DNA from: an uncultured Planctomycetia bacterium
GTDB taxonomy: Bacteria; Omnitrophota; Gorgyraeia; 2-02-FULL-51-18; JAGOUK01
Length of the DNA stretch: 64,000 nt
Assembly (NCBI GenBank): GCA_964430735.1
Contig: CAYSFB010000005.1
Location: 46,390-110,389 of the forward strand
Direction: 5' to 3'
Shown here: positions 33,101 through 53,100 of the stretch, in pieces
Layout of the letters: every line of letters starts with the position of its first letter
Position numbering within the stretch: position 1 is the stretch's first letter
Position numbers and translations under genes: made by a program
The notes under the pieces: model-generated
The model's database searches: none
Seen by the model: the letters and a program-made list of their open reading frames with translations, nothing else
Told to the model about the DNA's origin: nothing

Positions 33101-36100
33101 TCCTCGAAGGAGGATATGACTGGTTCCGCCAGGTCACGAAGAAGTTTCCGAACGTGTTCACGCTGTTTCTGGCGTCGTTTACACCGGAAGAATTGACCCT
33201 GCGGGCCTCGAATCAGCAGATCATCGAAAAAGTGTGGCAGGATCCGCTGCAGCGCGCCGTCGCCTTCAACCTGGTCAACATGATGCGCCGTAATCAAAAG
33301 ACAGAGATGATCGACCTTCGGCGCGAGGAGACTCTAAAAGAACTCAGTCAGGCCGTCTCGGGATGGGAAGGCCATCCCACCCGAGCGTCCGACCCCGCCG
33401 GCGCCATGCGTAAACTCGGCCGCAAGGTATATTCAGCCGAGGCGGTCGCCAAGAATCCGGATCTCGCCGAAACGGAAGCCACGCTTCGCGCCACGGCCGG
33501 CATCATCGAGAGCCCCGAGTTCATCGAGGCCGTGAACCGTCTCCTCGGCCCCGACTATCTCAACCACACCTTCCGCATCGATGAGTCGAACGCCCCTCTG
33601 GCCCGCTCACTCGCTTATTACTTCCATATGCGGCTGGCCGGGGCCGGGCGTTCGGACACTTCCGTCAGAATCGCCATCCCGTCGGCCGAGCGCGACAGAA
33701 CCGCCAATTATTCCAAGGACGAGGACATGTTCAACCGGATGATCGAAGGCGTCATTCAGACGCTCCTCATGCAGGAGTACGTCGAAGGCGATCGCGCCGG
33801 CCGCGGGACGATCGTTCACAACGCCTTCGTTTACGGTGACGGCGGCGAGGACCATATGAAACTCATCGAAGCCACCGAGAAGCGCCACGCGAACACCATC
33901 GCCGACCAATACTTCGGGTACCTGCTTTCCGCGATGAACGCGGCCAACGGCGCGCGTCTGGCACAGGTCGAGATGGTCGACGTGCTCGACGAAGCGGGTA
34001 GTTCCAAAGGAATGGTGCGCAGTCTCGACAAGGTGCGCGCGCAAGGGGACTGGCACGCGACCGTTTATGTCTTCGTGTTTGATCCGGCGACGGGCAAGGT
34101 TTATGTGCAAACCCGCTCCAAGGCGAAGGATCTGAACCCCGGCAAGGAGGACGCGTCCGCGTCCGGGCACGTCGAAGCGGGTGAGCGCGACCGCCGGACG
34201 GCCGCGCACCGTGTGGCGCTCAACGAACTGGGCGTTCATATCTCCATTGAGAATTTCATCGCCGTCGGCAAGGAATCCGGATACCCGGTCGTCGAAGACC
34301 GTCCGAACGGTCCGGCCCTGCGCCAGTACCGCACCGTTTATGTGGCCGTTTTGCCGGAAGGCGAACAGGTCAGTCCGAACGCGTTGGAAGTCGACAGTCT
34401 CAAGCAGTCCGACGTCATAGATCAGCTCCGTCTGGCGGATTCAGGTTCCGCGGAAATCAGCGAAGGCCTCCGGCAGATTTACAAACTCCGCCGCGTCCGC
34501 AGAGCGTTGGTCCGCGTGCAGAACCTCCTTGAAAAGATCCGTCTGCGCAACCAGGACCATGCTCTGTCGCGGCAGGATCTCCTCTTCGCGATCCGGAACC
34601 GCATTTCGACCCGTCCGATCAGGAACGTGGTGCTGGTGAGTCCCGAAGCCGTGCCCGTGGTCAAGACGGGCGGTCTGGGCGACGTGGTGGGTGAGTATGC
34701 CCAGTCGCTTTCGCGCCTGGGAATCGATGTCGCCGTGATCCTGCCCAAATACAACCGCGGACCCGTCACGGACGCCCTGGACACCGGGATGTCCTTCCAG
34801 TTACAGCTTATGGGCCGCACGGTCACGATCAAGATTCTGAAGAAAAAAATCGGGTCGGCCACCTACTATCTGCTCGAAGACACAGACACTTCCGAAAATT
34901 CGTTCCTGAACGAAATTTATCCGAAGGACACGGACGCGGACCACACCCGCTCCTTCGCGCAGTCCCGGATCGTCTCCGAGGGCTCATTGATCGCGATCAA
35001 AAAACTGGTCGAAGCGAAGATGATGGCCCGTCCGAACATCATCCACGGCCACGATTGGGAGACCGGCTGGATGCACGCGTACCTCCAAACGAAGTACGCG
35101 CAGGACCCGATCCTCGGCAGCGCGGTTCACGTCGGCACGGACCATAACCCGCGTCAACAGGGCCCCGATTTTCCTGCCAGGCTATATGCCGAACTCGAGA
35201 TTTATAACGCCAACGGCGAAATCGACTGGACGCACGTGTTCGGGATGCAGCGTCCCGGAAACACGAACGTGATCAACGCCAAGCGCGCCCAGCTGCTTCA
35301 CGCCGGCGCGGTCAACGTCGTCTCGGCCGGCAACCGCAGGGAAGTGCTCGCGGGAACGCAGGCCCACGGCAATCTGGACCTTTACGCGGCCAAAGGAAAC
35401 CTGTTCCGGGGTATCCCGAACGGCATTTCCGCGGACCGTTGGCCGGTGCTTTCGCCGGCCGTCAAGATCCAGGCGGAGGACCGGTTGTTGAGCGAGTTGA
35501 ATCTGGCCCCTCGCGGACCCGACACGGTGATCATCGGTTCAGTCTCCCGGATTGACGACCAGAAAAACACGCAGGCCGTCGTCCGCTCGATCCGCCGTAT
35601 TCTCGAAGAGACGGATGGCGACATCCGGTTCATCTTTGCAGGCGACGGACATCCCTCCAATCAGTACGCGCAGGAAGCCAAGGCGATGATGGCCCAGCTT
35701 CAAGCCGATTACCCGCGGCAGGTGCGGATTATTCACAAGGCGGACCACGACCTTCAGAACAGGATTTTTGACGGTCTTCAGATCTTCTTGTACCCGTCCA
35801 ACCCCGCGATCGGCGAGCCGTTCGGCACGAAGGCCGCCGTCGCTCTCAGCAAGGGCGTGCCCGCGGTGCTCACGCGCGTCGGCGGCCTCGCAGACATCGG
35901 CACCGAACTGAATCCCGTGAACGGAACGGGCAACACGGTGTTCCTCAAGTCGACTTCGCCGGTCGAAGTTGAAGTCGAACTGCACGACGGGATCTGGACG
36001 CTGATGAATCTTTATCGCAACGAGTCCGACCAGCTGACGTCGATCCTCGACAATGCCAGAAACGTCCAGGTGGATTGGGCCGACTCGACCCGGCAGTATC

Positions 36101-38718: not shown

Positions 38719-41700
38719 ATGAACCGGAAGCTGAAGTGGATGGCATTGATGGTCGCGGTTGCCTTTATGGGCCAGGAGCTGGCTGTGGCTGCTCCGGTTC
38801 TGGCACCTTCCATGCCGGTCGCTGCTTCCAAGCCGGAGGTGGGTTTTGTTCTGCCGGAGTCGGTCGCGCTGATCGACGACGGATTCAAGGCGCCTGCGGC
38901 GGATGCGAAGACAATCTTTCTTATTCAAGACGCACACACCAATGAATCCGGTCAGATGAACGAGGCCAAGGCCCTCGCCGAGATCCTCCCATCAGAGAAT
39001 ATCAGGCACGTATTTACCGAAGGCGCCGACAACGACGCGTCCCTTTCGTTCCTCAAAGAATTTTTCCCCAAAGACGTGCTTCGGAAGACCTCGATCTCCT
39101 TTGTCCGCAAGGGGATCATGAAGGGCAGCGAATTCGCCAGCGTGAACGGGGATCATGAGTTCGCCCTGATCGGCGTCGAAGACGAAGAGCTCTACGATCA
39201 GGCGCTCGAGTCATTCGTCGATATTCTTAAACGCCGGGATAAAGCCGTGCAGTATCTCGACCGCGTCGGGCGCGCCGCTTCCACGCTCAAGGAATCGATT
39301 TACAGCGAGGAACTCAAGGCTCTGGATGCTCAGGAATCGGCGTACCGCGCCGGTGAATTGCCGCTCACGGATTATTTTGCTGCGCTGCATGCCCAAGCCA
39401 GGAAGACCGGCGTGTATCTTCCGCAGTATCCGCACCTTTCATTCTTGAACGAACTCAAAAAATCCGAGTCCAAGGTCGACTTCAATCAGGTTTCCAAAGA
39501 GCAGGAAGCGGCGCTGAAGTCGCTTCCCGAAGAAGACCAAAAAACGCTAGCCGCCGCTTCCAAAGAAAAGCATTCGCCCTTCCGTATGGGCGGCGGTGAA
39601 AAATCCACCGAGAAGGCCTTCTACGCGCTTCTCGAAGAAAAGCTGGCCGGCCGGTCCGCCGCATACCCGGCCCTGTCCCGATATTTCGGCTACCTCAAAC
39701 AAACCAAAAAACTCGACGCTCAATCCATCCTCAACGAACTCAAGGCTTTTGAGATGGACGTCTTCGGCCGCCTTGCCGTCACTCAGGACGAACAATTCCT
39801 GGTGGTGCTGTCGAAGAACCTCGTCTCGCTCGAGAATCTGCTCGAGATCAAGCTTTCTCCCGAAGAATTCAGCGCGTTCCGCCGCGATTCCGCCGTGTTC
39901 GACATCAAGGTGATCGGTGGATTTTTCAACAAAAAGATCATGGGCCTCGGCAAACATCACGACCAAGCTGTCCTGCTCGAAAAAGATTATGACGAAGCGG
40001 TGAAGACCGCCTCCGAGTTTTATGAGCTGACCTATCGGCGCGATGAGGCGTTCGTCCGGAACATGCTCACCCGCATGGATGCCGACCAGGCCGCCAAAGC
40101 CGTTCTCGTCACCGGCGGTTACCACACTCCGAGCCTGAAGCGCATGCTGAAGGATAAAGGCATTTCCTACGTTTCGATTATGCCGCAGATTCTGCACGAG
40201 ACCGACATGGCCCGTTACCAGAAGATCGTGACGAGCCAGTTGTTCGACGCCCAAAAAGAGACGCGTCTGGCCCAAGCGCGCTCCAAGGCCAACGCTTTTA
40301 TGCCCAAGGATCTTCGCAGCCGCGGCGTGGCTGATTTCATCACTGTTGCCGCCTCCAACCTCCCGAAGGACCAGCAGGAATCCGTCGTCACCGAAGCTCT
40401 CGCGGCCGCTCGACTGGCTGTGAGCAGTCCGGATCCGCTTCAGGGGACTTTGATGCGCATCGAACAGGGGATGCTGTCCAGTTCGTTCGGAGATGCCGCG
40501 CTCAATTTAAGAGCCAAAGACCGCGCGGGGCTGCGTGGAGTCTGGGATTTGCGTTGGCGCCGCCCTTATTCGAGCGTGGGAGCGGAACAGCATTTGAGTC
40601 AGCATCTTTTTCCGTCAATTCTGCGCGAGGCCGCTATGCCGCGTTTGACCACTCCGAAGACCGATGCGGAAGCCGACGATGAAAGGATCAAGTCCCTTGT
40701 CGCGCAGGCAAAGGCAGGGGATTCAAAGGCTTTGGATGATTTGTACCTGCTCCTCTATCCTTCGATCAAAAAAGCAATCGATATCAAGATTCAGGAAAGG
40801 ACCAGAGACGGAAAATTCTCATGGCTAAAAAACGAGCGGGGCGACATTTTGTCCATCGTTTATCTTCAAACATTGCCCGACGTCGTGCGGGCATTCAATC
40901 CGGCCACCCTCCGCAATTCTGGTCGTGGCGCGGAAAACTTCAAGCGCTATCTGATCCGATCGGTTTACAATCTGATCGTCAAGCTGGTAATACAGCGTCG
41001 AAACGTTTTTTTGAATGCGAATTTTGACGAACATCCGAGCCCGATTGCGGCTCCTCCGGCGATTCTGGAAGAGCTTGAACAAGCGTCTTTAGAAACCCGC
41101 GTTGTCAGTGATCTGGTCGACGACATTTTGCAGAGCGCAAACAGCGAACAGGCAAAAGAGGAGCTGATGGGGGTGCTGTCCGGAATTTTAAATTACGGTG
41201 ACAACGATTCTGTGATCTCTCACGAAACCGGCATCGCAGAGCCCAGAGTCGCCTTGATCAGACAGGAGATCGTCAGCCAGTATTCTGAATTTAATTTTAA
41301 AGCGAAAGGCAATATCCGGTGGCGGGTGTGTCTGGTGAATATTTATGATTTTCTTGCGATCAGAAAGATTTTAAAAAATAGTGACCCGCGGAAAATAAAA
41401 AATATCCTGTCCAAAAATCCCGCCCGGGCAGACATCGTTTATCGGGCATTGAGACTTCGGTACGGCGCTGACGGCACTCCCAAACGCCTTGAAGAAATAG
41501 TCAAGGAGACCCATGCCTCAAACGCGAGCGTTGTCTGGAGCCGCATCCAGGCGGGCGTCGCGGCGATCAAAGCCAATGATCCGGTGTTTTCCGGCGTGTA
41601 CTCTGACTTCGAATCTTCGGCAGAAAACGGTCCTTCGGCCGCCCGTTTGGCGGATATGAGCATAAGTGGAGAAGGTTGGTCCGAATTCGGTCACCTTGCC

Positions 41701-44700
41701 AAAGAAAGCAACCCGCAACCCGCAACTCCTGTCCAATATTCACCCGAAACTGGTCCCGTGATCGAAGGTGCCGTCGTCGGAAAAACCGCGTCCGAAGAAG
41801 GCGCCATTGCGCCCCAGGTGGCTCTGCCCAATCAAACCAATGCCGCGCGGTTGGCCACAAACATCAACCGCAGACAGTTTTTAATCGACGCGACCAAAGC
41901 GGCGGCAACCACCGTCGTGGCATCCCAGATCCTGCGGACGACTCCAGTTCAGGCAGAGGAGCCGAGCGAACTAGTACCCGGAAGCACGCTCAATCTCTTT
42001 GACGAATACGGGACCAAGGCCGGTGAGACGTGGGCGAGCAAGTTCGCCTTCACCGGCGGAGCGCTGGACGCATCGCAGACTCTGAAGTTCGTCGTTACGC
42101 CTGAAGACAGCCTCGAAGGATTCATGATCCGACTGACCAAACAGAAAGACGACGAGGATCCCTGGATCCTCACGTTCAAAAAAGTGAACGGGAAGTGGGG
42201 CGTGAGCACCAGCCCCAAACTCTCGGCGCCCAAGGCTGCCGAGCAGTTTGCCGACAAGGTCGCGGTTGATGCCGACGGAAACATTGTCGTCACGGTTCCG
42301 GTTGCGCTGATTCCCGCATCCGCCCGCTCGCCCAAAGAAATCCACATTCACGCCGGCAAGGTCATCAGCACCGGTCCCCAGGGCCGCGGCATTCAGATCA
42401 ACCTGAATAAGACCAACGGTCCCAATCTTCAATCTGCAGCGGTAGAAATATCCGAAAAATCCGGCGCCCGGCTCGCGACGCTCAAGGAGCTCGAAGCGCG
42501 TCCTTTGGACAAGTGGAATGCCGTGAATTTGACCGATTTTGTTCTAAGCGCCGCTTCCGTGAAGCGGGTTCAGGAAGGTGCCGATCTCAGCCGATACGAA
42601 ATCCGAGGCGCAGGCCGTACGTTGTCGGCGGAAGTCATGAACCGGTATCAGTCCGGGACCGTGTTTCAAATCGCCGTTTCCTGGCAGGATGACGCATCGA
42701 CGTCCAAAACTTTGTATGCGAACCCTTCGGATAATTACTCGCTGGACAGCCTCGCGGAGATTCTGATGGGCCGCGTCGAGGCCGAGCAGACCGCCCCGAA
42801 GTCGGCGGAGCAGACGACCCGAGCGATGCGGCTGGACGAACTCGATTCTGAACAGCTCGCGGATATTCTCAGGGAACTCGTTCGTACGGACAAGCTTGCC
42901 GAGTATCCCGTGCAGTCCAAATTCCTGCTCTATTCCGCGGCGCCTGGCACCGGCAAAGGAGCTCTCTGGGAGACCGCGTTTGATCCGGACAAGGGCGGAA
43001 GCTTCAGCGATATCACCGAAAAGGTCGTGTTGTTCCACACCCGGAAGATGCGTGCAGGAGAAGTTGACGGCGTGCATTACCATTTCCGCACCGTCGATCA
43101 GCTGCGCGACCTTGAGCAAAGAGGACTGATTCTCACGACGCTCATCAACGGACAGGTGCAGGGCCTTGCCATCAAGAGCTTTGAAGACGTTCGTCAGGAC
43201 GGAACTCCGGCTCAAGTACGCGGACTCGAAGGCATCTTCAGCGGCGACAAGCTGGCTATCCTTGAAGGCGGCATGGGCTGGTTCGACTTTTTGCGCAGCC
43301 GCCCTGAATACAACGGCGTTCCCGCATTCTTTTTAACACCGCTTCCGGAAAACGTGATTCAAATTCGCGAGAAAAATCTCCAGGTTATCAAACGCACATT
43401 CCCCACGGACCGGGAGCAGGCGCTCGCGCTCGAAATCATGATGCGTCTCTTCAGCCGGGACGGCGAATCAGACCTTTCGAATCCCGCCTACGTCGGTCAG
43501 CTGAACCGGATCAAGGAAGGGGTGACGCAGATCATCAAGGGCGGAGACTATGACGAAAGGTTCGAAAACATATTCGGATTTTCTGACGAAGATAAGGATA
43601 AGAATCTGAAGTCTTTGGTGGAACGGTTTTCGCGCGCCTACTTTTTGCGGGTCTTGAACGAAATACAGAATGATCCGCGCGGAGCCGCTGACGTCGAGGC
43701 TGCAATGGCGAGTGTGCTTGGATCCCGGTTGGCAACCGGTCCAAAGGGGCCGAGCTGGATCCGTCAGTATGCGCCGCATGTCGCGGACAGCCAAATCGTC
43801 GAAGTCACGATGGAGATGGCGTTGAGCGAGCCCATCATGAGCGCGCTTGAGACGCGCCTGCGCCAATCGGGTCTTGAGGAGGAAGCGATCGAGCATGAGC
43901 TGCGCAAGGCCGCCATGTCCACGTCCGTCGGAGGTATCGGTCCGCTGCTGGGTGAACGCGTGCCGGAACTTTCGAACCTCGGAGCAAATGTAACGGCAGT
44001 TTCGCTTCTTTATAATCAGGTCTGGGTTCAGAAACGCCGGCCCGACGGAACACTTTCGTCCGAAAAGGAGCAGGTTCATCCGGAACTTCGTAACGTCATG
44101 GAACCCGCCGGCGAAGTGACGATCGAGATGTACGACGGCACCAAAATCAGCGCGCGTGTGCTCAAGGCCCCCCGCGGAGCCTACCAGCAGGCCGACGTCT
44201 ACTTTATTGACGTGCCGTTCCTCGCTGACACGATCTGGGCGCGTTCGAATGTCGTTTATCCTGGGGCCAAAGACGTCAGCCGCGCGAATGCCGAGCTGGC
44301 GCGCTTCAATCAGAGCTGGATCCTGGGCCGCGGTACGCTCGCTCTCATGAAAATCCTGAAACGCCGTCCGGATCTCGTGATCATGAGCGAGGCGTCCTCG
44401 ATGTTCGCGCATCACCGTGTTTTTAGAGACAGCCATAGCGACGATCCGTTTTTTGACAACACCCGCTATGTTTTTAACGATCACACGCCGCTGGATTATG
44501 CGCATCCCAAATGGAGTTCCCAGGTGCTCCGGCTCCTGCGCGTCGACGAGCGTTTTTGGGGCGAGAATCTCCCGGTGTGGGACGCGGACGGCCGCGTGGA
44601 CGCGACGGCGCTCATGATCAACGCCTCGGACATCGTGTATGGCGTGGCCAAGAAGCACGCGGAGGTGATGCGCGGAATGGTCGGGTTGAGACGTTTGGCC

Positions 44701-47136
44701 GAAAAAATCCGTCATGTAACCAACGGTGTGAGCGTGGAATGGGCTGACCGCGAGTTTCGGGATCTGGAGCGGGTTCGCGCGATTCCTGACGAGGAGCTCA
44801 TCCAGATGAAGCGTGTCCGGAAAGCCGCCATGCTGCATTGGCTGGCCCGCAGGCAGGGAATGGATCCGGGCTGGGCCGGCCGTATGCTGGCCGAGAACCG
44901 CCCGGTCGGTCTTTGGACGCGCCGCATCGTCGAGTACAAGCGGCTCGGAGTGTTTGCGGATCTTCTGGAAAACACCGAATTGCGCGAGGAATTCATCCGC
45001 TCCGGGATCATTTTTATCTTCGGCGGAAGGACTCATCAGGACGACGATTACGGGATCCGGCAGTACAACCGCATCCAGGAATCGGTCAAGCGCGACCCGC
45101 GCCTCAAGGACCAGGTGATTTTTTTCGAAAATTACAACCGTTGGGAGGCCGTGAAGCTTTTCAGGGGTGTCGATTTTTCCGTGATGCTGGCGGATGACGG
45201 CCGCGAAGCGTCGGCGACCGGATTCCAAAAGGCTCAATTGTCCGGATCGCTCATCATCGCGAGCAACGACGGGGCGATTCCCGAGTCCGTCAAGTTCCTG
45301 GATCCGGCTCCGGGCCTTCCGATCCGGGGTGCCAACGGCTTCAACGTCCCTTACGTGAACGACCAGCCGACAGCCGGGGGTCTTATGGACGCCTTCGGAC
45401 GGTTCCGGCGGATTTACGATCAGCCGGACAAACTCGCCGCAATGATCCGCAACGCTTTGCGTCAGGCGGAATTCGTGAGCGTGCGCCGCACGGCAGAGGA
45501 CATGCTGCGGCTTTTTGACCAGGAAGTCCGCGTGCTCGATCACTACCGGATCGATACGAAGGAGGCGGATGCCCAGTCGGATGCGTTGTTCTCGGAGTCC
45601 GGTATCGATGCCGGGACGGCCCGGGCGCTTCTCAAGGAGCTGGAAGCCGACAAGTCGCGGTTCGTCTGGAAGTTCAAAGAAGATTATGTGAGCGAAAAGA
45701 CATTGGTCACCAGCGAGCCGGGTATTGCCGGATTCCTGCGGGGCTTGGACCGGATCCGGTCCATGGGGTCGGTCGGGGAGTGGAGTCTCAAATTCCATGC
45801 CGGGGCCGAAAACTACCGCGGCGACATTCTGAATTATCTGGACTACCACATCAGCAAAATGAGCGACATGGGAGTCCTCAAGGCCTACGTCCATGCGAAG
45901 CACGCTGAAGCCGAGGATGCGTCCGTCAACGACAAGATCCGCATCAGTCTCGAAGTCGCCGAAGTCATCGAGCACTGGATCCGGCGCCTGGAGCGGACGG
46001 CGGCGCAAGGCTCGAGGTTGGCGGCGGAGCGGCAGCCTTCAGCTTCCGTTCTGGACCAGGTGTCCGCAGACTTGGCCCGCCTGGCCGGTCTTGAGGGCTC
46101 GATCGACCGCGCGACGCTTGAAGCATTCATCGTGCGGCTCATGACGGCCAATGAGAGCCAAGAAGCCTCTTTCCCGCTGCTCATGGGCGATGGTCTTGTG
46201 CTGGTCGACGTCATTCGCTCGGAAGCTGGATATCGGATCCGGGTGAATGACCGGGAAGAAGATGTTCTGACCAACGAGGAATTTGCATCAGTCCGTGAGC
46301 GCAATGCGGCAAATGACCGTGAGCGTTCGGAATCGACCTCGCAGGGGCTGCTCGAAGTGGTTACGGCGACCCGCGCGGACATCGATGAGCTCAAGCAGCT
46401 CATGTCGGCATCCAAGGAGCGTATCCGGGTCCGCGTTCCGGTCCATCGGATTTTTGGAGCGATCCAAAATCCGAAGCAGGCCGACCGCGCCCTGTATCAG
46501 GCGCAATCGCTTCTGGCGATGATCGGCTGGGCATCGGAGCATGCGCAAAAGAACGGCCTTCAGGGACTCGACTTCCACTTCCCGCAGGAATGGCTGGAAC
46601 AGCTTCCGAAGGCCGCTTCAGAAATCCGCTCGCTGGTCGAGTCGGCGGAGTCCTCCGGCAAATACGGCAACCGCATCCACCTGGATCAGCCGAACCCAAA
46701 GGACTTCATCATCAACTGGATGGTGGGCGAATCGCCGGATGACATTGCGGAGTTCATTAACTTGTCCGGCAAGAAGGAATTCAACCTGGTCATTGCTGAG
46801 AACGGCCGGTCGGTCCATAGAGGTCTTCTGCCGTGGTTCCGCGGCGTGAACGTGCCGATGAAGGCGTTGTCGGATTACTCGGAGCGAGCGACCGCTCCCG
46901 ACGGCAACCTGGAGACAGTTCTGACGCAGGCCGACTCTGTCCGCGGACCGGAAGTCTTCGAATACATCCGGCGCGCCTTGAGCGGCACATTCGATCAGAC
47001 CTCCATCACCGAAGCATTCAAGGGCAACAACTGGCTCATCCTGGTGAATGCGCGCCTGGAACTCTTCGTCATCCCGATCGATCAGCTCGTGAATGCCGCA
47101 AGAATGATGGCCGATACGACGGATACGGCCGCATAA
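38719..47136 (+). CDS. Giant (2,805 aa) signal-anchored multidomain protein: conserved N-terminal module, ECF-sigma-like segment, internal Tat-like signal, guanylate-kinase-like domain and GT35 alpha-glucan-phosphorylase-like domain.
   Basis: An uninterrupted 8.4-kb frame with a good SD. The N-terminal MNRKLKWMALMVAVAFMGQELAVAAP is a signal anchor, and the homologous N-terminal module follows. Confidence 0.85.
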   Translation: MNRKLKWMALMVAVAFMGQELAVAAPVLAPSMPVAASKPEVGFVLPESVALIDDGFKAPAADAKTIFLIQDAHTNESGQMNEAKALAEILPSENIRHVFTEGADNDASLSFLKEFFPKDVLRKTSISFVRKGIMKGSEFASVNGDHEFALIGVEDEELYDQALESFVDILKRRDKAVQYLDRVGRAASTLKESIYSEELKALDAQESAYRAGELPLTDYFAALHAQARKTGVYLPQYPHLSFLNELKKSESKVDFNQVSKEQEAALKSLPEEDQKTLAAASKEKHSPFRMGGGEKSTEKAFYALLEEKLAGRSAAYPALSRYFGYLKQTKKLDAQSILNELKAFEMDVFGRLAVTQDEQFLVVLSKNLVSLENLLEIKLSPEEFSAFRRDSAVFDIKVIGGFFNKKIMGLGKHHDQAVLLEKDYDEAVKTASEFYELTYRRDEAFVRNMLTRMDADQAAKAVLVTGGYHTPSLKRMLKDKGISYVSIMPQILHETDMARYQKIVTSQLFDAQKETRLAQARSKANAFMPKDLRSRGVADFITVAASNLPKDQQESVVTEALAAARLAVSSPDPLQGTLMRIEQGMLSSSFGDAALNLRAKDRAGLRGVWDLRWRRPYSSVGAEQHLSQHLFPSILREAAMPRLTTPKTDAEADDERIKSLVAQAKAGDSKALDDLYLLLYPSIKKAIDIKIQERTRDGKFSWLKNERGDILSIVYLQTLPDVVRAFNPATLRNSGRGAENFKRYLIRSVYNLIVKLVIQRRNVFLNANFDEHPSPIAAPPAILEELEQASLETRVVSDLVDDILQSANSEQAKEELMGVLSGILNYGDNDSVISHETGIAEPRVALIRQEIVSQYSEFNFKAKGNIRWRVCLVNIYDFLAIRKILKNSDPRKIKNILSKNPARADIVYRALRLRYGADGTPKRLEEIVKETHASNASVVWSRIQAGVAAIKANDPVFSGVYSDFESSAENGPSAARLADMSISGEGWSEFGHLAKESNPQPATPVQYSPETGPVIEGAVVGKTASEEGAIAPQVALPNQTNAARLATNINRRQFLIDATKAAATTVVASQILRTTPVQAEEPSELVPGSTLNLFDEYGTKAGETWASKFAFTGGALDASQTLKFVVTPEDSLEGFMIRLTKQKDDEDPWILTFKKVNGKWGVSTSPKLSAPKAAEQFADKVAVDADGNIVVTVPVALIPASARSPKEIHIHAGKVISTGPQGRGIQINLNKTNGPNLQSAAVEISEKSGARLATLKELEARPLDKWNAVNLTDFVLSAASVKRVQEGADLSRYEIRGAGRTLSAEVMNRYQSGTVFQIAVSWQDDASTSKTLYANPSDNYSLDSLAEILMGRVEAEQTAPKSAEQTTRAMRLDELDSEQLADILRELVRTDKLAEYPVQSKFLLYSAAPGTGKGALWETAFDPDKGGSFSDITEKVVLFHTRKMRAGEVDGVHYHFRTVDQLRDLEQRGLILTTLINGQVQGLAIKSFEDVRQDGTPAQVRGLEGIFSGDKLAILEGGMGWFDFLRSRPEYNGVPAFFLTPLPENVIQIREKNLQVIKRTFPTDREQALALEIMMRLFSRDGESDLSNPAYVGQLNRIKEGVTQIIKGGDYDERFENIFGFSDEDKDKNLKSLVERFSRAYFLRVLNEIQNDPRGAADVEAAMASVLGSRLATGPKGPSWIRQYAPHVADSQIVEVTMEMALSEPIMSALETRLRQSGLEEEAIEHELRKAAMSTSVGGIGPLLGERVPELSNLGANVTAVSLLYNQVWVQKRRPDGTLSSEKEQVHPELRNVMEPAGEVTIEMYDGTKISARVLKAPRGAYQQADVYFIDVPFLADTIWARSNVVYPGAKDVSRANAELARFNQSWILGRGTLALMKILKRRPDLVIMSEASSMFAHHRVFRDSHSDDPFFDNTRYVFNDHTPLDYAHPKWSSQVLRLLRVDERFWGENLPVWDADGRVDATALMINASDIVYGVAKKHAEVMRGMVGLRRLAEKIRHVTNGVSVEWADREFRDLERVRAIPDEELIQMKRVRKAAMLHWLARRQGMDPGWAGRMLAENRPVGLWTRRIVEYKRLGVFADLLENTELREEFIRSGIIFIFGGRTHQDDDYGIRQYNRIQESVKRDPRLKDQVIFFENYNRWEAVKLFRGVDFSVMLADDGREASATGFQKAQLSGSLIIASNDGAIPESVKFLDPAPGLPIRGANGFNVPYVNDQPTAGGLMDAFGRFRRIYDQPDKLAAMIRNALRQAEFVSVRRTAEDMLRLFDQEVRVLDHYRIDTKEADAQSDALFSESGIDAGTARALLKELEADKSRFVWKFKEDYVSEKTLVTSEPGIAGFLRGLDRIRSMGSVGEWSLKFHAGAENYRGDILNYLDYHISKMSDMGVLKAYVHAKHAEAEDASVNDKIRISLEVAEVIEHWIRRLERTAAQGSRLAAERQPSASVLDQVSADLARLAGLEGSIDRATLEAFIVRLMTANESQEASFPLLMGDGLVLVDVIRSEAGYRIRVNDREEDVLTNEEFASVRERNAANDRERSESTSQGLLEVVTATRADIDELKQLMSASKERIRVRVPVHRIFGAIQNPKQADRALYQAQSLLAMIGWASEHAQKNGLQGLDFHFPQEWLEQLPKAASEIRSLVESAESSGKYGNRIHLDQPNPKDFIINWMVGESPDDIAEFINLSGKKEFNLVIAENGRSVHRGLLPWFRGVNVPMKALSDYSERATAPDGNLETVLTQADSVRGPEVFEYIRRALSGTFDQTSITEAFKGNNWLILVNARLELFVIPIDQLVNAARMMADTTDTAA
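40680..41580 (+). other. ECF-type sigma-70-like segment (region 2 and region 4 signatures) embedded inside the giant ORF.
   Basis: The region-2-like part is LVAQAKAGDSKALDDLYLLLYPSIKKAI...FKRYLIRSVYNLIVKLVIQRR, comparable to ..GD..AF..LY..Y......FS.WL..IARN...D..RRR. The region-4-like part is ARADIVYRALRLRYGADGTPKRLEEIVKETHASNASVVWSRIQAGVAAIK, comparable to R.V..LRY.EGLS..EIA..LG.S.GTVKSRL.RA...L. An AT-rich patch (about 41280-41420) lies between them. Confidence 0.35.
41840..41965 (+). other. Internal twin-arginine (Tat)-type signal-peptide-like element about 1,040 aa into the protein.
   Basis: NAARLATNINRRQFLIDATKAAATTVVASQILRTTPVQAEEP has RRQFL as the S/T-R-R-x-F-L core, a hydrophobic h-region and a VQA-E AxA site. 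The TTG codon of the ARLA leucine would start a canonical signal at M-A-T-N-I-N-R-R-Q-F-L. Confidence 0.4.
42920..43560 (+). other. Guanylate-kinase-like domain (copy C).
   Basis: FLLYSAAPGTGKGALWE is a P-loop. HTRKMRAGEVDGVHYHFRTVDQLRDLEQRGLIL is the GMP kinase T-x-R-x-x-R-x-G-E-V-D-G-x-x-Y-H-F box. Confidence 0.5.
43800..45550 (+). other. GT35-family alpha-glucan (glycogen) phosphorylase-like domain.
   Basis: STSVGGIGPLLGERVPELSNLGANVTAVSLLYNQ is comparable to phosphorylase YSGGLGVLAGD...LG.P.VGVGLLY..GYF. EASATGFQKAQLSGSLIIASNDGAIPE is comparable to the PLP-lysine signature E-A-S-G-T-[SG]-x-M-K-x-x-L-N-G-A-L-x-x-x-T-x-D-G, and the Lys is retained. Confidence 0.55.
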
Positions 47137-47148: not shown

Positions 47149-50100
47149 ATGAGCGTCCTCAGGACCCGAACCCCCATCCGGATTCGCGCGATTGCGGCTT
47201 TGGCTGCGGCGGCCTTCCTGCTGCAGGACGTCGCGTTCGCCATGCCCGAGCTGGCGGCGCGCGCGGGAGTGCCGCACGTGCCCGCTTCGGCGGCGATGAT
47301 CGAAGACCGTTTTGACGCCGGACATTCCGGCGGCAAGACGGTTTTTTTGATCCAGGACGCTCACACCAACGCTTCAGGCCAGCGGCATATCGCCCGCACG
47401 CTCGAAGCGCTTCACAATCAGACCGGATTCACGCACGTTTTTCTCGAGGCGGGGTCGGGGGATGATTCCATCGGCTTTCTGCGTCCGCTGGCCGGATCGG
47501 CAGATCGCCGGAACGTGGCTGAGCCCTACCTTAACAAGGGCCTTTTGCAGGGGGCCGAGTACTTTGAGCTGGTCACCGACCGGCCCGTCAAGCTCTGGGG
47601 CGTCGAAGATCCGGCGTTGTACGCCCAAGCGCTCGCCGCCTATAGGACAGTTGCCCTCGGGCGTTCGGTGCACGAGGCGCGTATCGGCCGCCTGGATACG
47701 GCGGTGGAAGTGCTCAAACATAAGATTTACAATCCCGCGCTGCTCGAACTGGACCGGATCCTTTTGTCCGACGTGCGGGAGTCCAAGCCCTTCACCGAGC
47801 TTCTCGCGGAGCTGGATCCCTTCCTGAAGCGCGCCTCGCTCGGGTGGGGCGAATTTCCTGAGCTTGCGGCGGTGCACCGGGCGCTGGCGATGGAGCGGAA
47901 GATCGACTTTGACCTTGTCCGCCTCGAGGAAGCGGAGGCGATTCACCGTTTGCCGGAAGCCGACCGCGCCGCAATCGAAGCCGTGCGGTCATCGGCCGGA
48001 CGCATCGCCGGATCCAACCTTGCCGTCCAAGCCTCGCACGCGGCGCTTCTCAAGGAAGCGCTCGCCGCCGCGCCCGGCCCGGCCCGTTCCGTCCCCGCCG
48101 AGCTCCGGAAGTATTTTGAGTACATCGAAGCGACGCAGGCCATTCGGACCGAGCGTGCGGTTCGGGAGCAGGAGCGGCTTACGCAGGCGCTCATCAGCCG
48201 GCTGACGCGTACCCGTGAAGAAGCCGGTCTGGTGCGCGCGGCGTCCGCGCTGGAGGCGTTCCGCGGACTCGGGGCGCTCGAGCTCACTCCGGACCGTTAC
48301 AAGTCGGAATCTGCGAATCCTTATTTTGCGGACGTCGCACGGTTCGAGGGATTTTTAAACGGTCAATGGATGCGGCTGGGGACGGGGTATGAAAAAGTCG
48401 TTTTTTTGGATCCCGCCTTTGAAGACTGGATCGCCGAAGCGAAGCGCTTCTATGATCTGACGCTCGCCCGGGACCGGCAAATGATCCGTGAGGCGTTGTT
48501 GCGCATGGACGAAGCCGGCGAACGGAAGGCCGTCCTTGTGGCCGGCGGATACCACGCGCCCAACCTCAAGCGCCTCCTCCGTGAATCGGGCGTATCCTAC
48601 GTCTCCATCCTTCCTCAGATCACGCATCCGACCGACAAGGCGCGTTATGAGCGCCTGCTCCTGGCCCAAACGCCCGGCCGGCCTGCTGGCTCAGCCCGCG
48701 CCATGAGTCTCAAGCCCTCGCGCGAAGCGAATCCCGCTCTGCTGGAGCAAATCGCGCGCGACCTGGCCTCGCGGCCCGGCGCCAGTCCCGAAGCCCTGCG
48801 GGCCGTGTTGTCCGAGCTTTCCGGCGGCGCGCGGCTGGCCGCATCATCGCAAAGCGTCCGGACGGGAGTAGAGGCGTTTGCCGACTCGATCGTCGACAAG
48901 CTTCGGCGCGACCCGTTGTTTGATTTTGCGGACTTTAGCAGCGAGGCGCAGACGCTTTTCGGCAGCCGCACCGACAGGATTCCCGCGCTCGAGATACTCG
49001 CCCAAAGAATCAACCGCACACTGATGGAAGACCGTTCTCTCATGCCGTTCGAAAAAGCCCGGTTGTATCAGTTCCTTGCCGATCTCTCATTAAATGACCG
49101 GGAGCAGTCAGAGTCAGTGTTCGGCACGGACATTTTTTACGGCGCCTACAAGCGCATGATGGGAACGCGCCGCTATCTGATCGAGCGCAACCGGCAGCTC
49201 CTCGCCGCTTTTCGTTCAGTCATGCTCCCTGTTTTGGAAAAAGTGAAGCGTCCGTCCGGTCCCGTCTACTCGGGCAACAAAGTGACGGCGGAGGTTTCTG
49301 CCCGTTTCGACGCGCTGCACCATGGCGTCGGCAAGGATCTTTTTGTCTACGCGTCGGTTCCCGACGAAAAGTCGGTGCTTAACTTCACCGTCGATCCCGA
49401 CGCCGGCCCGGCCTTCAGGATCGTGGTCCGCCCCTCCGAACGGCGCGGGGTATCGGTCGCGAATTTTCGCTATCAGCATCCGGACCAAAAAGACGCCGCG
49501 CCTGATGTGACGCGTCTCGAGGCTGATGACGCAGATGGAATCAGGGAACTCAAGTCCGATCCTCAGTTCAATCACGTGATGGCCGCCCTGAGCGCTGCCG
49601 GCCTGACCTCCCATCGCGCCGGCGAAGAACAGGTTCTCAGCAGCATCAAGTCGATTTACGGCATGAGTCCCTGGGAAGGCATCGAGATCGAGATTCACAG
49701 CCGGCTCCCCGTGTCGAGCGCACTGGGCGGCGGCACAGGCATGACGTCGGCTCTGATCGCCGCGTTGCTCGAGTACACGGGACGCGGGAAAGCGGTCTCC
49801 AAGGCGGAACTTGCGCTTCTGGGTTCGTATGCGGAGATGCTGTTGGCGGTGGATGATCCTTCGAGCCCGATGGGAGGATGGCAGGATGCCTTGGGGGCGC
49901 TGCTAACATACCTCAATTGGATCACGATCGGTTCGGATCGGCCGTTTACCGAACTTCATGAACAAGCGATCTTCGAAGGAGAAGTCCAAATCCGCCGCGA
50001 GCAGCAACTGATGTCCAGCCTTCTTGCCCGCTCCGTGCCGATCCTTCTGCCTTCGGCCGAAGGGACTGGATCCCAGGATGTTTTGGAAGAACTTGTGAGC

Positions 50101-53100
50101 CTCCATTTGCGCGGCTCCCGACGGTCCCGGGAAGCTGCGGCCGCGGGCCGGGTCCGTATGGAACAAGCCTGGGATTTGATCAGCCGATATCGGTCGGGCG
50201 ACCTAACACTGGAATCTGCCACGGACGGACTGATCCGCCTCATGACCGAAGAGGCCGAAGCCTTCGGGTCGCTCGTCCTTGGTGTGAGACATGAAGGGTT
50301 TGACCGGCTTCTTTCTGAGCTGACTTCCGCACGCGACTTGAAGAATCCGGACGGTACCCCTCTTGTTTCCGGAGGCAAGATCGGAGGAGCCGGAAGCCGC
50401 GGTGTTGCGCTCGTGTTTTTGGCGGCGGGAAATGACCGGGAGTTGAGCGTGCGCCGCCGGCGTGTCCTTGATGCGGCGGAACGCGCCGGAATGAGCAGCT
50501 TCCCGCTGCGGGCCGGCGACGGTCTGCGGCTGAAGTCAGCGCCGGTCCGACGGACCCAAGGCGCCAGACTCACATCGGCCGTCTCGCTGCGCGGCCTTGC
50601 TCCGGAAGTGGAGCTGGAGGTGTTGAAGCACCATCGCGACGAACTCAAAAAGGAGCGCTTCGCTCCGGGAACCGGCAACTTCACCCGCGTGTACCTGTTC
50701 TCCGATATTCACGGGTCGATCGGGAAGATGGATGATTTTATTCTCAAGGCCTTGAAGGACGCGTTTCCGGAAGCGTTTGGAAGTATCGCGCGTTTGGATC
50801 CTTCCATATCGCTTCAGGAGCAGCTGGCGGAACCGGTGCGCCAGGTGGGCGGTTGGAATGTCATTCGGGAAAAAGTCGCCTTCTTAAACGGCGGCGATCT
50901 CATGGACCGCCAGGATATCAATAAGGGCGAGTCGGGGCTGGCCGTTTATGAGCGTACGATCCAGCTGCAGGAGCTCGGGCTTCAGGAATTCACGACCGGC
51001 AATCATGATCACCTGGTCATCATGCCCCTCATGGGACTTCATCTGCCGACATACGAGGGTTATCGCTTTTATTTGGACATGACCGAAGCCGGCAAGGCGG
51101 CCCAGCGGGCACTCGAGCACGAGATTTATCGTGACCCCGCCCGGCCTGATTCCAAGCTGAAGCTGAGGCCCGTCGAAGACGTGGTGCGTGAGCGGAATCG
51201 CGGGTTTGCGAGCGACCGCGACCGCACCGAATTCTGGAGCCAAAAATTCTCGGACTATTACACTGAACGGATCGACCCCGCGTCTCCGCTCGTACGGGAA
51301 TGGAAGCAGATCGGTTCAGAGGTGTTGGGCGATCCGGCCTCCGGCAGCGCGCCGCTCATGTCCAAAGACCAGATCAAGGGGTTGAGCGGCCTTCAGAAGG
51401 TTTTTTGGAACAAGTTCACAGGCAAGAACATGGAAGACGTCGACATCTACACCGGCATCCGGACGATCAAGGTCGGCGACCAGGAAGTCTGTTCCACGGG
51501 CCTTATGTCCGCGATGTGGTGGCGCGAGCTCCGGACCAACTTCCAGCAGCAGCTGGACAAGCCGCTGGATGCAAAAGACGCGATCCGCGATCTCTCGATC
51601 CGGGCTTCGTGGGAAAAGGCCATCCGCTACATGGACCGGATCCTGGAGGGTCTCGAAGCCGACCTCCGCAAGCGCCGCAGCGAGGGGCAATGGTGGGTCC
51701 GGGCGATCGAAGCGTTGTATAACCAAAATTATTACACGGCCGAGCAGGCCGCCTGGGACTGGGTCGTCCACCTCGGCTGGGGCCCGGCGTTGTTCGAAGA
51801 AATCAACCGCCTGATCCGCGCGGGAAAAATCCCCGGACCCGAGATCGACCGGTCCAACTTCCTGCTCAATTCCAAAATCCAGGAAATGAGCCGCAGGATG
51901 CAGGAAATGTTCGCGCTGTATTCGCGCAACCGGTATATGACGTTCCTCCACGCGACCCTCCCCATGGACCGGGCGACTGACAGCGCTCCCGGCGATTCCG
52001 CGCCCATCCTTCCGGGCCAGTTCCGGTTCAGGTACGACGGCGTGACCTATGTCGGCGCCGGGCACGAAGCGAGCGGCAGTCCGTCGGTGTGGGAGGGGAT
52101 GGACCGGCTCGAACGGGCGGTCCGCGAAGCCGACCCGGTTCATATGTCCGATGCGGCAACGGCCTTCAACGCGATTTATGACTGGTATTCGGACTTTAAG
52201 ACCCGCGCCAAGCCGCGGGATGTGCTGGAATTGGTTAACGATGACATCGCTTTCACGAACTTTTTCAACCTCAACGGAATTTACGGGTTTTTGGGGACGG
52301 GCCACAACCCGTTGCCGACCGGTTTTGCCAAATATGTGCGCGAAATGCTCCGACGCTTCGCCGGCGTTCTGACTCAGGCGTTCGGTCCGCGCTTCCGGGA
52401 CTACTGGCTCCAACTTGACGCCGGAGTATCCCTCAAGTTCGGCAACCAGGGGCTCATGATCGCGATTCATCCCGCTGACATTGCCGGCGGCCTGCGCATC
52501 TTCGGTTACACCAAGCCGGACGCGAAAGAATTGACCGAGAACCCCGCCATTTATTACGAAAAAACCTACAAGAACTACAAAGAGCAAAAAAAATCAGATG
52601 CCGAAACACCCGAGCCGAACCCCGCCTTTACGACCGAGCCGGTCGGACACGAGGACTTCCTGCTCGGCCACCTCGGCATCGTCGAGGATCGGATCCGCGT
52701 ACTCGAGAGCCGTCTCAGGTCCCAAGTCGAAGCCGACGGCCCCGGCGGCGCCCGTTTGGCAGAGAACCTCCCGGAATACAAGCGGACGATTTCCCGTCAG
52801 CTCACGGGTGCGATGGGCCAATTGTCCAAACTTGCGCAAGAGCTCGAGAACGTCAAAGCCGAGATCGCCCGCATGAGAGGGTACGAGCCGGATCCGGACG
52901 GACCTGAAGCTCCGGAGGAACCCGGGATGAACAGGGCGATCATCGATTACTTCCTGGGCGGCGATCTCGCGTCCCGGACCGACCGGTTGCAGGATTTTGC
53001 GGATCGGATCGAGTATGTGCGTGAACAGATCTCGGCCGCGAGTATGCCGCTTTTGCTGGACCATCCGAGCCGTGAGGACCTGCTCGGTGCTCTTGCCGAC

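What the first reader, a model, noticed from the sequence alone, without database searches (positions are those of the whole stretch)
41840..41965. Canonical twin-arginine signal peptide located about 1,040 residues inside a 2,805-aa ORF
NINRRQFLIDATKAAATTVVASQILRTTPVQA-EEP has every element of a Tat signal: a Z-R-R-x-F-L core, an uncharged h-region and an AxA cleavage site. It sits deep inside the reading frame, directly after an ARLA motif. The TTG codon encoding that Leu would yield M-A-T-N-I-N-R-R-Q-F-L if used as an internal start. Tat signals are N-terminal by definition. An internal one therefore implies internal translation initiation, proteolytic release of a downstream module that is then exported, or a recent in-frame gene fusion. 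The downstream module (glucan-binding region, guanylate-kinase-like, GT35 phosphorylase-like) would then be a folded Tat cargo, which is plausible for a PLP-dependent enzyme.
Basis: seen in the sequence. Interest (0 to 1): 0.75.

Follow-up and report, generated by a model that had tools for sequence, protein, structure and literature searches.

The report
Export leader behind a polyprotein junction
A twin-arginine-type export leader really does sit about 1,050 residues inside a giant Omnitrophota gene, at the start of a small lectin-like cassette and directly after a five-residue motif (G/A-A-R-L-A) that marks cassette junctions throughout these giant proteins, which suggests they are cut into pieces that are then targeted separately.

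Summary
B (38719-47136, 2,805 aa) carries ...AARLA|TNINRRQFLIDATKAAATTVVASQILRTTPVQA|EEP at residues 1042-1082. "Canonical" is slightly generous: TIGR01409 gives 14.3 bits against a 16.7 cutoff, and the uncharged core is 12 residues.

It is not chance. The closest relative (locus L002, Omnitrophota MAG) has the same cassette, 26-29% identical. Its leader, AARM|STRRDFLRTAGLGLAAAGLVPLTASA|EDE, passes the cutoff at 21.3 bits.

[GAS][AS]RLA occurs 22 times in the window's four tandem giant ORFs, against 0.6 expected. Its synonymous codons vary, homology blocks stop at it, and other lineages carry RSE[LVMIA]R instead. All of these proteins start with a conserved ~500-aa domain whose predicted fold resembles Tiki/TraB/ChaN/EreA hydrolases, a superfamily that includes site-specific endopeptidases.

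Best reading: a modular polyprotein in which cleavage at the junction would expose the leader of a ~200-aa lectin-like cassette. The downstream kinase-like and phosphorylase-like modules lie beyond the next junction.

Cleavage, export and the presence of Tat genes are all untested. A general internal start is excluded; one at this site lacks support. The junction motif and the N-domain fold were not found in the literature searched.

The parts
38719..47136 (+). ORF B, 2,805 aa. Giant modular protein that holds the finding.
   Evidence: Identical protein on 3 contigs.
38719..38805 (+). N-terminal Sec-type signal-like segment of B (aa 1-29, MNRKLKWMALMVAVAFMGQELAVAAPVLA). The hydrophobic-x-Q-[DE]...A pattern is shared with A and C.
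   Evidence: AF2 helix 3-24. Simple Hessa sum +4.1, more like a signal peptide than a TM helix. No Tat model hit.
38854..40248 (+). Conserved N-domain (aa ~46-510; IQDAH ... GVED ... GGYH). An alpha/beta core with a ~300-aa helical insertion. Candidate processing hydrolase.
40405..40419 (+). Junction motif AARLA (aa 563-567). First junction, right after the N-domain.
41638..41652 (+). Junction motif AARLA (aa 974-978).
41842..41856 (+). Junction motif AARLA (aa 1042-1046), immediately upstream of the leader. Its Leu is the TTG at 41851-41853.
   Evidence: Aligned with AARM in L002.
41857..41955 (+). Tat-like leader, aa 1047-1079: TNINRRQFLIDATKAAATTVVASQILRTTPVQA.
   Evidence: TIGR01409 gives 14.3 bits against a 16.7 cutoff. 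PF10399 is sub-threshold. Too polar for a TM helix, +8.3. Disordered in the AF2 model. Conserved in L002.
41869..41883 (+). Twin-arginine core R1051-R1052-Q-F-L.
41947..41955 (+). V-Q-A (-3 to -1). Predicted signal-peptidase-type site before E1080. L002 has A-S-A before E-D-E.
   Evidence: The cleavage is inferred only.
42034..42354 (+). All-beta core of the cassette (aa ~1106-1212). Galectin / concanavalin-like lectin or CBM-like sandwich in a low-confidence model.
42463..42477 (+). Junction motif GARLA (aa 1249-1253) that closes the leader-plus-lectin-like cassette. L002 has GARMA at the aligned place.
42925..43134 (+). Guanylate-kinase-like P-loop region (aa 1403-1472), in the next cassette.
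43720..43734 (+). Junction motif GSRLA (aa 1668-1672).
43924..45288 (+). Alpha-glucan phosphorylase-like (GT35/GT5) region, aa 1736-2190.
46009..46023 (+). Junction motif GSRLA (aa 2431-2435).
47095..47109 (+). Motif-like AARMM eight residues before the stop (...NAARMMADTTDTAA*). Part of a C-terminal signature shared by the family.
7561..38484 (+). ORF A, 10,307 aa. Paralogous giant with the same N-domain and 9 junction motifs. Modules include two NUDIX, a GlgA-like synthase and guanylate kinase.
47149..59361 (+). ORF C, 4,070 aa. Paralogous giant with the same N-domain and 7 junction motifs. Modules include a GHMP-kinase-like region and glutamate dehydrogenase.
27..4493 (+). 3' part of ORF U (4,878 aa in full). 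Fourth tandem giant, with GARLA at aa 1252 of the window part and GARMTSASA* at the end.

Best explanation
The segment is the leader of one discrete cassette in a modular, polyprotein-like giant protein of an Omnitrophota bacterium. The cassette spans B residues 1047-1248 and consists of the leader plus a ~170-aa lectin-like beta-sandwich.

Cassettes are joined by a lineage-specific pentapeptide: [G/A/S]-[A/S]-R-L-A here, R-[L/M]-[A/T] variants in the nearest relative, and R-S-E-hydrophobic-R in other lineages. The most likely mechanism is endoproteolytic processing at these junctions. The conserved Tiki/TraB/ChaN/EreA-like N-terminal domain, present on every member, is a candidate protease.

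Processing at 1042-1046 would put TNINRRQFL... at a new N-terminus. There it could act as a twin-arginine-type (or weak Sec-type) export signal, with signal-peptidase cleavage after V-Q-A(1079), sending only the small lectin-like domain across a membrane.

Shown here: the leader's features; its conservation in an orthologous cassette; the motif's enrichment; selection on the motif at peptide level; its coincidence with homology breakpoints; and the N-domain's predicted fold similarity.

Inferred only: that the motif is cleaved; which enzyme cleaves it and where in the motif; that the leader engages Tat; and in which cell compartment this happens.
For: Leader:
- The RRQFL core, a 12-residue uncharged stretch, R1073 in the c-region, V-Q-A, then acidic residues.
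- TIGR01409 gives 14.3 bits.
- Too polar for a TM helix: simple Hessa sum +8.3, against +0.9 to +1.3 for real TM helices in ORF A.
- Charge bias, counted directly from the sequence, is N-side +2 and C-side -2, which favours an N-in/C-out orientation.
- The leader is not part of the predicted fold.

Conservation:
- L002 carries ...QLNAARM|STRRDFLRTAGLGLAAAGLVPLTASA|EDE plus a homologous beta domain that ends in GARMA.
- Pairwise BLASTP E 2e-5, 26-29% identity.
- Its leader scores 21.3 bits, above the cutoff.
- At this divergence a neutral 35-residue segment would not be expected to keep RR-x-F-L, an h-region, A-x-A and an acidic start in both copies.

Junction motif:
- 22 observed against 0.63 expected, maximum 4 in 2,000 shuffles. 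Permuted controls give 0-3.
- GARLA is the most over-represented pentapeptide across 240 kaa of family proteins, and its flanks are unconserved.
- Codons vary at all five positions.
- Homology blocks end at motifs: 1 HSP crosses a motif against 10.3 expected, minimum 5 in 500 randomisations. HSP ends near a motif number 8 against 1.5.
- Cassettes are inserted or deleted exactly at motifs between B and L002.
- No Pfam domain is interrupted by a motif.
- The motif type switches between lineages, GARLA against RSE[LVMIA]R, and the two are mutually exclusive.

Candidate protease:
- The AF2 model of the N-domain has pLDDT 82.7.
- Invariant D71, H73, E101, E138 and E154.
- Weak Pfam hits to ChaN and TraB.

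Specificity: none of 10 other post-junction segments looks like a Tat signal.
Against: - No cleavage data exist.
- The window copy is below the TIGR01409 cutoff, and its h-region is short (12 uncharged residues, with D and K just before it).
- Only two instances of the cassette are known. No other homologue was found in 5.8 billion clusters or 1.84 billion representatives, nor in the genome and metagenome scans.
- Whether this organism has TatA/TatC could not be tested. None was found in 1.15 Mb of related loci, which is uninformative.
- Hydrophobic leaders are not generally enriched after junctions.
- Topology problem: B starts with a Sec-type signal. If the whole chain is exported unfolded, the leader would never face the producer's Tat receptor.
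- Foldseek did not confirm the N-domain fold. Pfam hits are sub-threshold. Many members of that superfamily are not proteases.
Confidence: 0.45

Rival explanations
1. Inherited leader with no present export role. The cassette was captured long ago from a free-standing Tat-exported lectin-like gene. The leader now serves only as a linker, or has some other role such as chaperone or membrane contact.
For: The other cassettes clearly derive from free-standing enzymes: GlgA-like, NUDIX, guanylate kinase and glutamate dehydrogenase. The window copy is sub-threshold and has D and K in front of a short h-region, which could be decay. B has a Sec-type N-terminus, so use of Tat by the producer is topologically awkward.
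Against: All signal features survive in two copies whose mature domains are only 26-29% identical: RR-x-F-L, the h-region, A-x-A, an acidic start and the charge bias. The L002 copy passes the curated cutoff.
Confidence: 0.15
2. Uncleaved internal targeting element. The segment works inside the intact chain as in dual Sec-Tat membrane proteins: a weakly hydrophobic segment with a C-terminal positive charge is released by Sec and handed to Tat. Alternatively it acts as an internal signal-anchor or re-entrant segment.
For: Internal Tat signals with low hydrophobicity and C-terminal positive charge are documented (PMC3471235, PMC5449189). B has R1073 right after the h-region. There is a sub-threshold hit to the Rieske Tat signal PF10399.
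Against: Only one hydrophobic segment lies upstream, about 1,020 residues away, which gives the wrong parity for a cytoplasmic RR motif. The h-region sums to +8.3 and so is not a TM helix. The cassette shows no cofactor-binding domain. The conserved A-x-A followed by acidic residues points to a cleaved signal. The leader starts exactly at a junction motif.
Confidence: 0.15
3. Internal translation initiation at TTG 41851 (ATG in L002) produces a separate protein, M-A-T-N-I-N-R-R-Q-F-L..., with a true N-terminal Tat signal.
For: Both copies have a possible start codon at the motif's fourth position: TTG here and ATG in L002.
Against: No Shine-Dalgarno-like sequence lies upstream of either, while B's real start has AGGAG. 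The motif's fourth codon is CTT or CTC in 7 of 23 sites, so the motif is not a start signal. M is a regular motif variant in L002, where GARM occurs five times.
Confidence: 0.05
4. Chance resemblance in an Ala/Thr/Arg-rich giant protein.
For: Loose Tat-like patterns occur about once per 14,000-26,000 aa in these sequences. The window copy is below the curated cutoff.
Against: The aligned position in L002 carries a leader above the cutoff. The leader begins one residue after one of 22 junction motifs in 18.7 kaa. None of 10 other post-junction segments hits a Tat model.
Confidence: 0.03

Closest known systems
Twin-arginine signal peptides (NCBIfam TIGR01409; Pfam PF10518 and PF10399)
   Same: An RR-x-F-L core, a weakly hydrophobic h-region, a basic residue in the c-region, A-x-A, and an acidic mature start. 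The L002 copy passes the TIGR01409 cutoff.
   Different: It sits about 1,050 residues inside the ORF rather than within the first ~35. The window copy is sub-threshold (14.3 against 16.7 bits), with only 12 uncharged residues.
Bipartite thylakoid-lumen presequences such as PsbP/OE23 and PsbQ/OE17 (established knowledge, not tested here)
   Same: A twin-arginine signal is masked by upstream sequence and becomes N-terminal only after an endoprotease removes that sequence. This is the same logic as proposed here.
   Different: In chloroplasts the upstream part is a ~50-residue transit peptide. Here it would be ~1,040 residues of other cassettes. No bacterial example is known to me.
Dual Sec-Tat-targeted membrane proteins: actinobacterial Rieske Sco2149, Sco3746 and polyferredoxins (PMC3471235, PMC5449189)
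   Same: An internal twin-arginine motif followed by a segment of low hydrophobicity with a C-terminal positive charge.
   Different: Those proteins have an even number of Sec-inserted TM helices just upstream, a true TM segment and a cofactor-binding cargo. B has none of these.
MARTX multifunctional autoprocessing toxins and viral polyproteins
   Different: Pfam found no C80 cysteine protease domain and no RTX repeats. The candidate protease is N-terminal and of a different fold. Processing is unproven.
Omnitrophota giant proteins: 'Archaeovorin' and 'Dockerin-type' (bioRxiv 10.1101/2023.11.21.568195; 10.64898/2026.06.07.730766)
   Same: Same phylum. Tandem giant ORFs with few annotated domains and an N-terminal signal. 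[quoted passage not shown]
   Different: Pfam found no SecA_DEAD, C39, S8 or dockerin domains here. The family is instead defined by the IQDAH...GGYH N-domain and junction pentapeptides. Neither is mentioned in those papers. The 2026 preprint discards signal-peptide calls on later sequence chunks as chunking artefacts.

Membership tests
Tat signal peptide (TIGR01409) | Consensus (S/T)-R-R-x-F-L-K core | tested here: met
   N-R-R-Q-F-L-I at aa 1050-1056. L002 has T-R-R-D-F-L-R.
Tat signal peptide (TIGR01409) | HMM score at or above the curated cutoff of 16.7 bits | tested here: not met
   The window copy scores 13.7-14.3 bits. The orthologous L002 copy scores 21.3 bits and passes.
Tat signal peptide (TIGR01409) | Uncharged h-region of about 13 or more residues after the RR motif (TATFIND-type rule, recalled from memory) | tested here: not met
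   12 uncharged residues (A1061-L1072), bounded by K1060 and R1073. L002 has 18.
Tat signal peptide (TIGR01409) | Small residues at -3 and -1 (A-x-A) in the c-region | tested here: met
   V-Q-A before E1080. L002 has A-S-A before E.
Tat signal peptide (TIGR01409) | Located at the N-terminus of the translated protein | tested here: not met
   RR at residues 1051-1052 of 2,805. No support for an internal start. It would be N-terminal only after cleavage at the junction.
Tat signal peptide (TIGR01409) | TatA/TatC present in the genome, and Tat-dependent export | not testable with these tools
   Only the window and flanks of related loci are available. No literature on Tat in Omnitrophota was found.
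Protease-processed polyprotein | Recurrent short linear motif at junctions between independently folding modules | tested here: met
   22 observed against 0.63 expected. Homology blocks end at motifs. No Pfam domain is interrupted. Lineage-specific alternative RSE[LVMIA]R.
Protease-processed polyprotein | Motif is selected at peptide level, not at DNA or RNA level | tested here: met
   Synonymous codons vary at all five positions.
Protease-processed polyprotein | A cognate protease is encoded | tested here: inconclusive
Protease-processed polyprotein | Cleavage products observed | not testable with these tools
   No proteomic data are available for this organism.
Tiki/TraB/ChaN/EreA superfamily (N-domain only) | Shared alpha/beta fold | tested here: inconclusive
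Tiki/TraB/ChaN/EreA superfamily (N-domain only) | Conserved His/Glu catalytic-type motifs (G-x-x-H ... E ... G-x-x-H; recalled from memory) | tested here: met
   D71, A72, H73, E101, E138 and E154 are invariant in 12 sequences. G466, G467 and H469 are invariant in A, B and C. The equivalence of these residues to the catalytic residues of the superfamily was not checked in three dimensions.
Tiki/TraB/ChaN/EreA superfamily (N-domain only) | Pfam family HMM above its gathering score | tested here: not met
   Best hits are ChaN PF04187 at E 0.073, TraB PF01963 at E 0.015 and DUF5682 at E 0.0012, each in only 1-3 of 12 members.
Dual Sec-Tat-targeted membrane proteins | Even number of Sec-dependent TM helices upstream, and a Tat-dependent TM segment | tested here: not met
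   Only one N-terminal hydrophobic segment lies upstream. The segment sums to +8.3.
MARTX toxins | C80 cysteine protease domain and RTX-type repeats | tested here: not met
   Pfam scans of A, B, C and U found neither.

The most novel reading that the evidence does not exclude
These tandem giant ORFs are genuine bacterial polyproteins. They would be cut at lineage-specific pentapeptide junctions (GARLA, GARMA or RSE-hydrophobic-R) by their own Tiki-fold N-terminal domain. One released cassette would carry a twin-arginine signal that becomes functional only after cleavage, which would be the first bacterial case of a Tat signal unmasked by proteolysis.

A bolder version follows from two observations. 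The proteins start with Sec-type signals, yet they carry cytoplasmic-type enzymes (glycogen synthase and phosphorylase, guanylate kinases, NUDIX, glutamate dehydrogenase). They could therefore be effector polyproteins delivered into prey cells, with the leader read by the prey's Tat system to send a lectin-like module to the prey envelope.
Probability: 0.25. Interest if true: 0.9.

Novelty: new variant of a known kind. Interest (0 to 1): 0.72.

Why it matters
Whether the giant proteins of Omnitrophota act as single chains or are cut into many products is an open question. The main preprint on them says that the lack of known cleavage points prevented splitting them for structure prediction. 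A later one discards internal signal-peptide calls as artefacts.

This finding led to a concrete and testable answer for one large family:
- a strict pentapeptide at cassette junctions that differs between lineages;
- a conserved N-terminal hydrolase-fold domain as a candidate enzyme;
- one cassette whose conserved export leader makes sense only if the junction in front of it is cut.

If this is confirmed, giant ORFs could be parsed into functional units by sequence alone. Internal signal peptides in these proteins would be reinterpreted. It would also add a bacterial counterpart to the proteolytic unmasking of Tat signals known from chloroplasts.

Tried and rejected
Searches that found nothing:
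- Homologues of the leader-plus-beta cassette. The word-indexed search found none, with either the single sequence or the two-sequence profile. Exhaustive HMMER over 1.84 billion representatives returned only the protein itself and one spurious repeat protein, P0011. Genome and metagenome DNA scans found none. Only L002 carries the cassette; it was found through the N-domain scan.
- TatA/TatC in the loci held: no hits, which is uninformative.
- Literature on Tat in Omnitrophota, or on a GARLA motif: nothing relevant.
- Extending the contig to look for Tat or protease genes. This yielded only the same four giants, a TPR gene, a Dpy19-like gene and one 405-aa gene without annotation.
- The afdb50 fold library was unavailable.

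Ideas rejected:
- The junction motif as a DNA or RNA signal, or a general internal start: codons vary and no Shine-Dalgarno sequence is present.
- A general tendency for junctions to be followed by hydrophobic leaders: no enrichment over random positions.
- The leader as a TM helix: too polar.
- My visual impression that B residues ~650-950 resemble a sigma-70 factor: no Pfam support, so it is not claimed.
- Foldseek confirmation of the N-domain fold: negative.
Full report
**Observation**

The window holds four tandem plus-strand giant ORFs:
- U: the 3' part lies at 27-4493; the full protein is 4,878 aa.
- A: 7561-38484, 10,307 aa.
- B: 38719-47136, 2,805 aa.
- C: 47149-59361, 4,070 aa.

B residues 1042-1082 read AARLA-TNINRRQFLIDATKAAATTVVASQILRTTPVQA-EEP (nt 41842-41964). 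The Leu of ARLA is the in-frame TTG at 41851.

"Canonical" is a little generous.
- TIGR01409 gives 13.7-14.3 bits against a cutoff of 16.7.
- The only Pfam hit is a sub-threshold match to the Rieske Tat signal.
- The uncharged core is 12 residues, preceded by D1057 and K1060.

The segment is far too polar to be a TM helix. A simple Hessa-scale sum gives +8.3, against +0.9 to +1.3 for real TM helices in A. Its charge bias favours an N-in/C-out orientation, as for a signal peptide.

**Is it chance?**

Loose Tat-like patterns turn up about once per 14,000-26,000 aa in these proteins. The loose pattern alone would not be remarkable. Three things lift it above chance.
1. It is the only such site in ORFs A, B and C, and the part of U held in L081 has none either.
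2. It begins one residue after a motif that marks module junctions (see below). Ten other post-junction segments give no Tat-model hit even at E<=10.
3. The nearest relative has the same cassette. This is locus L002, an Omnitrophota MAG deposited as 'uncultured Planctomycetia', with an N-domain 45% identical. It reads ...QLNAARM|STRRDFLRTAGLGLAAAGLVPLTASA|EDE..., followed by a beta domain 26-29% identical to B 1081-1250 and closed by GARMA. That leader scores 21.3 bits and passes the TIGR01409 cutoff.

At this divergence, retention of RR-x-F-L, an h-region, A-x-A and an acidic start in both copies argues for selection on the signal-like properties.

The ORF itself is sound. The identical protein is on three contigs, and the surrounding locus was assembled from two sequencing runs.

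**What surrounds it: a junction motif**

- It occurs 22 times in the window's giants, against 0.63 in shuffles (maximum 4 of 2,000).
- The five other orderings of R, L and A after the same prefix occur 0-3 times.
- Across 240 kaa of related giant ORFs, GARLA is the single most over-represented pentapeptide (58 copies). Its flanks carry essentially no information.
- Synonymous codons vary at every position; the Leu is CTT 1, CTC 6, CTG 8 and TTG 8. It is therefore a peptide-level signal, not a DNA or RNA element or a start site.

The motif marks module boundaries.
- No Pfam domain is interrupted by it. The domains checked are NUDIX (two copies), GlgA-like GT5/GT1, guanylate kinase, GHMP kinase, glutamate dehydrogenase and phosphorylase.
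- Local alignments between family members almost never cross a motif: 1 observed against 10.3 expected, with a minimum of 5 in 500 randomisations. They often end at one: 8 against 1.5.
- Repeated cassettes in L016 and L010 begin or end exactly at the motif.
- Between B and L002, whole cassettes are present or absent exactly at motifs.

The motif is lineage-specific.
- L002 uses R-[LM]-[AT] variants.
- More distant Omnitrophota lineages have no GARLA. They carry RSE[LVMIA]R at similar spacing (L065 and L069 ten copies each, L068 eight, L060 seven).

A strict recognition sequence that differs between lineages and sits between unrelated modules is what protease sites in polyproteins look like.

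**A candidate enzyme**

Every member starts with a Sec-type signal-like segment and a conserved ~500-aa domain (IQDAH ... GVED ... GGYH). A 12-sequence alignment gave a confident AlphaFold model, with pLDDT 82.7 and pTM 0.76.

- two EreA-like 'succinoglycan biosynthesis' proteins
- a TraB protein
- EreC

Single members give weak Pfam hits to ChaN ('Tiki superfamily') and TraB. Foldseek found nothing significant, probably because a ~300-residue helical insertion dominates the search.

I therefore treat the fold assignment as probable and the protease role as inference. Pfam found no other protease domain in A, B, C or U.

**The cassette behind the leader**

The guanylate-kinase-like and phosphorylase-like regions lie in later cassettes.

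**Mechanism**

Most likely (about 0.45): B is processed at its junctions. Cleavage at 1042-1046 would put the leader at a new N-terminus, where it acts as a twin-arginine-type export signal for the small lectin-like domain, with signal-peptidase cleavage after A1079.

The same logic is known from thylakoid-lumen proteins, whose Tat signal is unmasked when the stromal peptidase removes the transit peptide (established knowledge).

An unresolved difficulty is topology. If B's own Sec-type signal drives export of the whole unfolded chain, the producer's Tat system would never see the leader. In that case the leader is either vestigial or is read in another cell.

Omnitrophota are thought to be predatory or parasitic (PMC10066038). 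The cassettes are cytoplasmic-type enzymes. An effector-polyprotein reading is therefore conceivable, but it is speculative.

**Rivals**

- A conserved but non-export role, or a vestige (0.15).
- An uncleaved internal Tat or anchor element, as in dual Sec-Tat membrane proteins (0.15; PMC3471235, PMC5449189). This fits poorly: only one hydrophobic segment lies upstream, the segment is not a TM helix, and no cofactor-binding domain is present.
- Internal initiation (0.05). No Shine-Dalgarno sequence is present, and the motif's codons are not consistently start-capable.
- Chance (0.03).

**Novelty**

I found no mention of the junction pentapeptides, the Tiki-like N-domain or internal Tat-type leaders in the papers on Omnitrophota giant proteins.
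- One says cleavage is suspected, but that the lack of known cleavage points prevented splitting the proteins for structure prediction.
- Another removes signal-peptide calls on later sequence chunks as chunking artefacts.

The window's family also lacks the SecA_DEAD, C39, S8 and dockerin domains used to define the described types.

I rate this a new variant of known kinds (polyproteins, and masked targeting signals). Nothing about cleavage or export has been shown, only inferred.

Noticed in passing
L065, L069, L068, L060, L074, L075, L052 (e.g. L065 giant ORF aa 766-3321): A second junction-type pentapeptide, R-S-E-[LVMIA]-R, recurs 5-10 times per ~3,800 aa in giant ORFs of more distant Omnitrophota lineages. 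It is mutually exclusive with GARLA. L072 may use RAEAR.
   Followed up: partly
window 47095-47136, 59332-59361, 4464-4493, 38440-38484; many loci: Roughly half of the long ORFs with a real stop in these loci end in Ala, typically ...[S/T/A]-[A/S]-A-stop (TDTAA*, AEASA*, TSASA*, TEVAA*). B, C and U also carry a motif-like AARM, TARM or GARM 6-10 residues before the stop. This is a C-terminal signature of unknown role: a trimming site, a degron or a secretion signal.
   Followed up: partly
window 5357-7291 and 4548-5360: Between giants U and A lie two smaller genes. One is a 644-aa multi-pass membrane protein matching Dpy19, a GT-C glycosyltransferase (E 1.2e-8). The other is a TPR protein with a lipoprotein-like N-terminus. 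They hint that the giants are handled and possibly glycosylated outside the cytoplasm.
   Followed up: partly
window 38719-38805, 7561-7660, 47149-47245: The N-terminal signal-like segments of A, B and C share a hydrophobic-hydrophobic-x-Q-[D/E]-hydrophobic-x-hydrophobic-A pattern (AFMGQELAVA, FFFQDVVMA, AFLLQDVAFA). In L065 a segment ending in ...GAALLQD follows directly after an RSELR junction (aa ~941).
   Followed up: no
L060 giant ORF aa ~3508-3550: Another internal Tat-like segment, SRRRFLQILSAALGSTAIGGLGG, scores 15.0 bits on TIGR01409 (sub-threshold). It lies about 107 residues after an RSEVR junction in an unrelated giant.
   Followed up: partly
L024 giant ORF aa ~1859-1890; L042 aa ~708-750: Signal-anchor or signal-peptide-like segments lie directly or shortly after junction motifs: GARLA|RNTVKRVFLISISVFVLAAGG, and RSEVR|...SLWRTALISFLFAVFFGPISAFAQQ. 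Overall, hydrophobic segments are not enriched after junctions.
   Followed up: partly
window 10399-10464 and 19174-19233 (ORF A aa 947-968 and 3872-3891): Two internal signal-peptide-like hydrophobic segments in ORF A (KSRWIRAAVFVIYMLMLPVTAGAQG and NRLLRAVLTTGLMGLGLIHLSSAFLQA). They lie 165-250 residues after the nearest junction.
   Followed up: no
window ORF A aa 8090-9966, ORF B aa 1254-2432, ORF C aa 560-3161: The cassettes include cytoplasmic-type enzymes: two NUDIX, a GlgA-like glycogen synthase, an alpha-glucan phosphorylase-like module, two guanylate-kinase hits by Pfam (a third region of A aligns with B's by BLASTP), a GHMP-kinase-like region and a glutamate dehydrogenase. These are odd passengers for proteins that start with Sec-type signals.
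   Followed up: partly
L002 11485-11494: A 10-N scaffold gap in L002 splits the B-like gene into two apparent ORFs in different frames. The leader-bearing ORF there is not an independent gene.
   Followed up: yes
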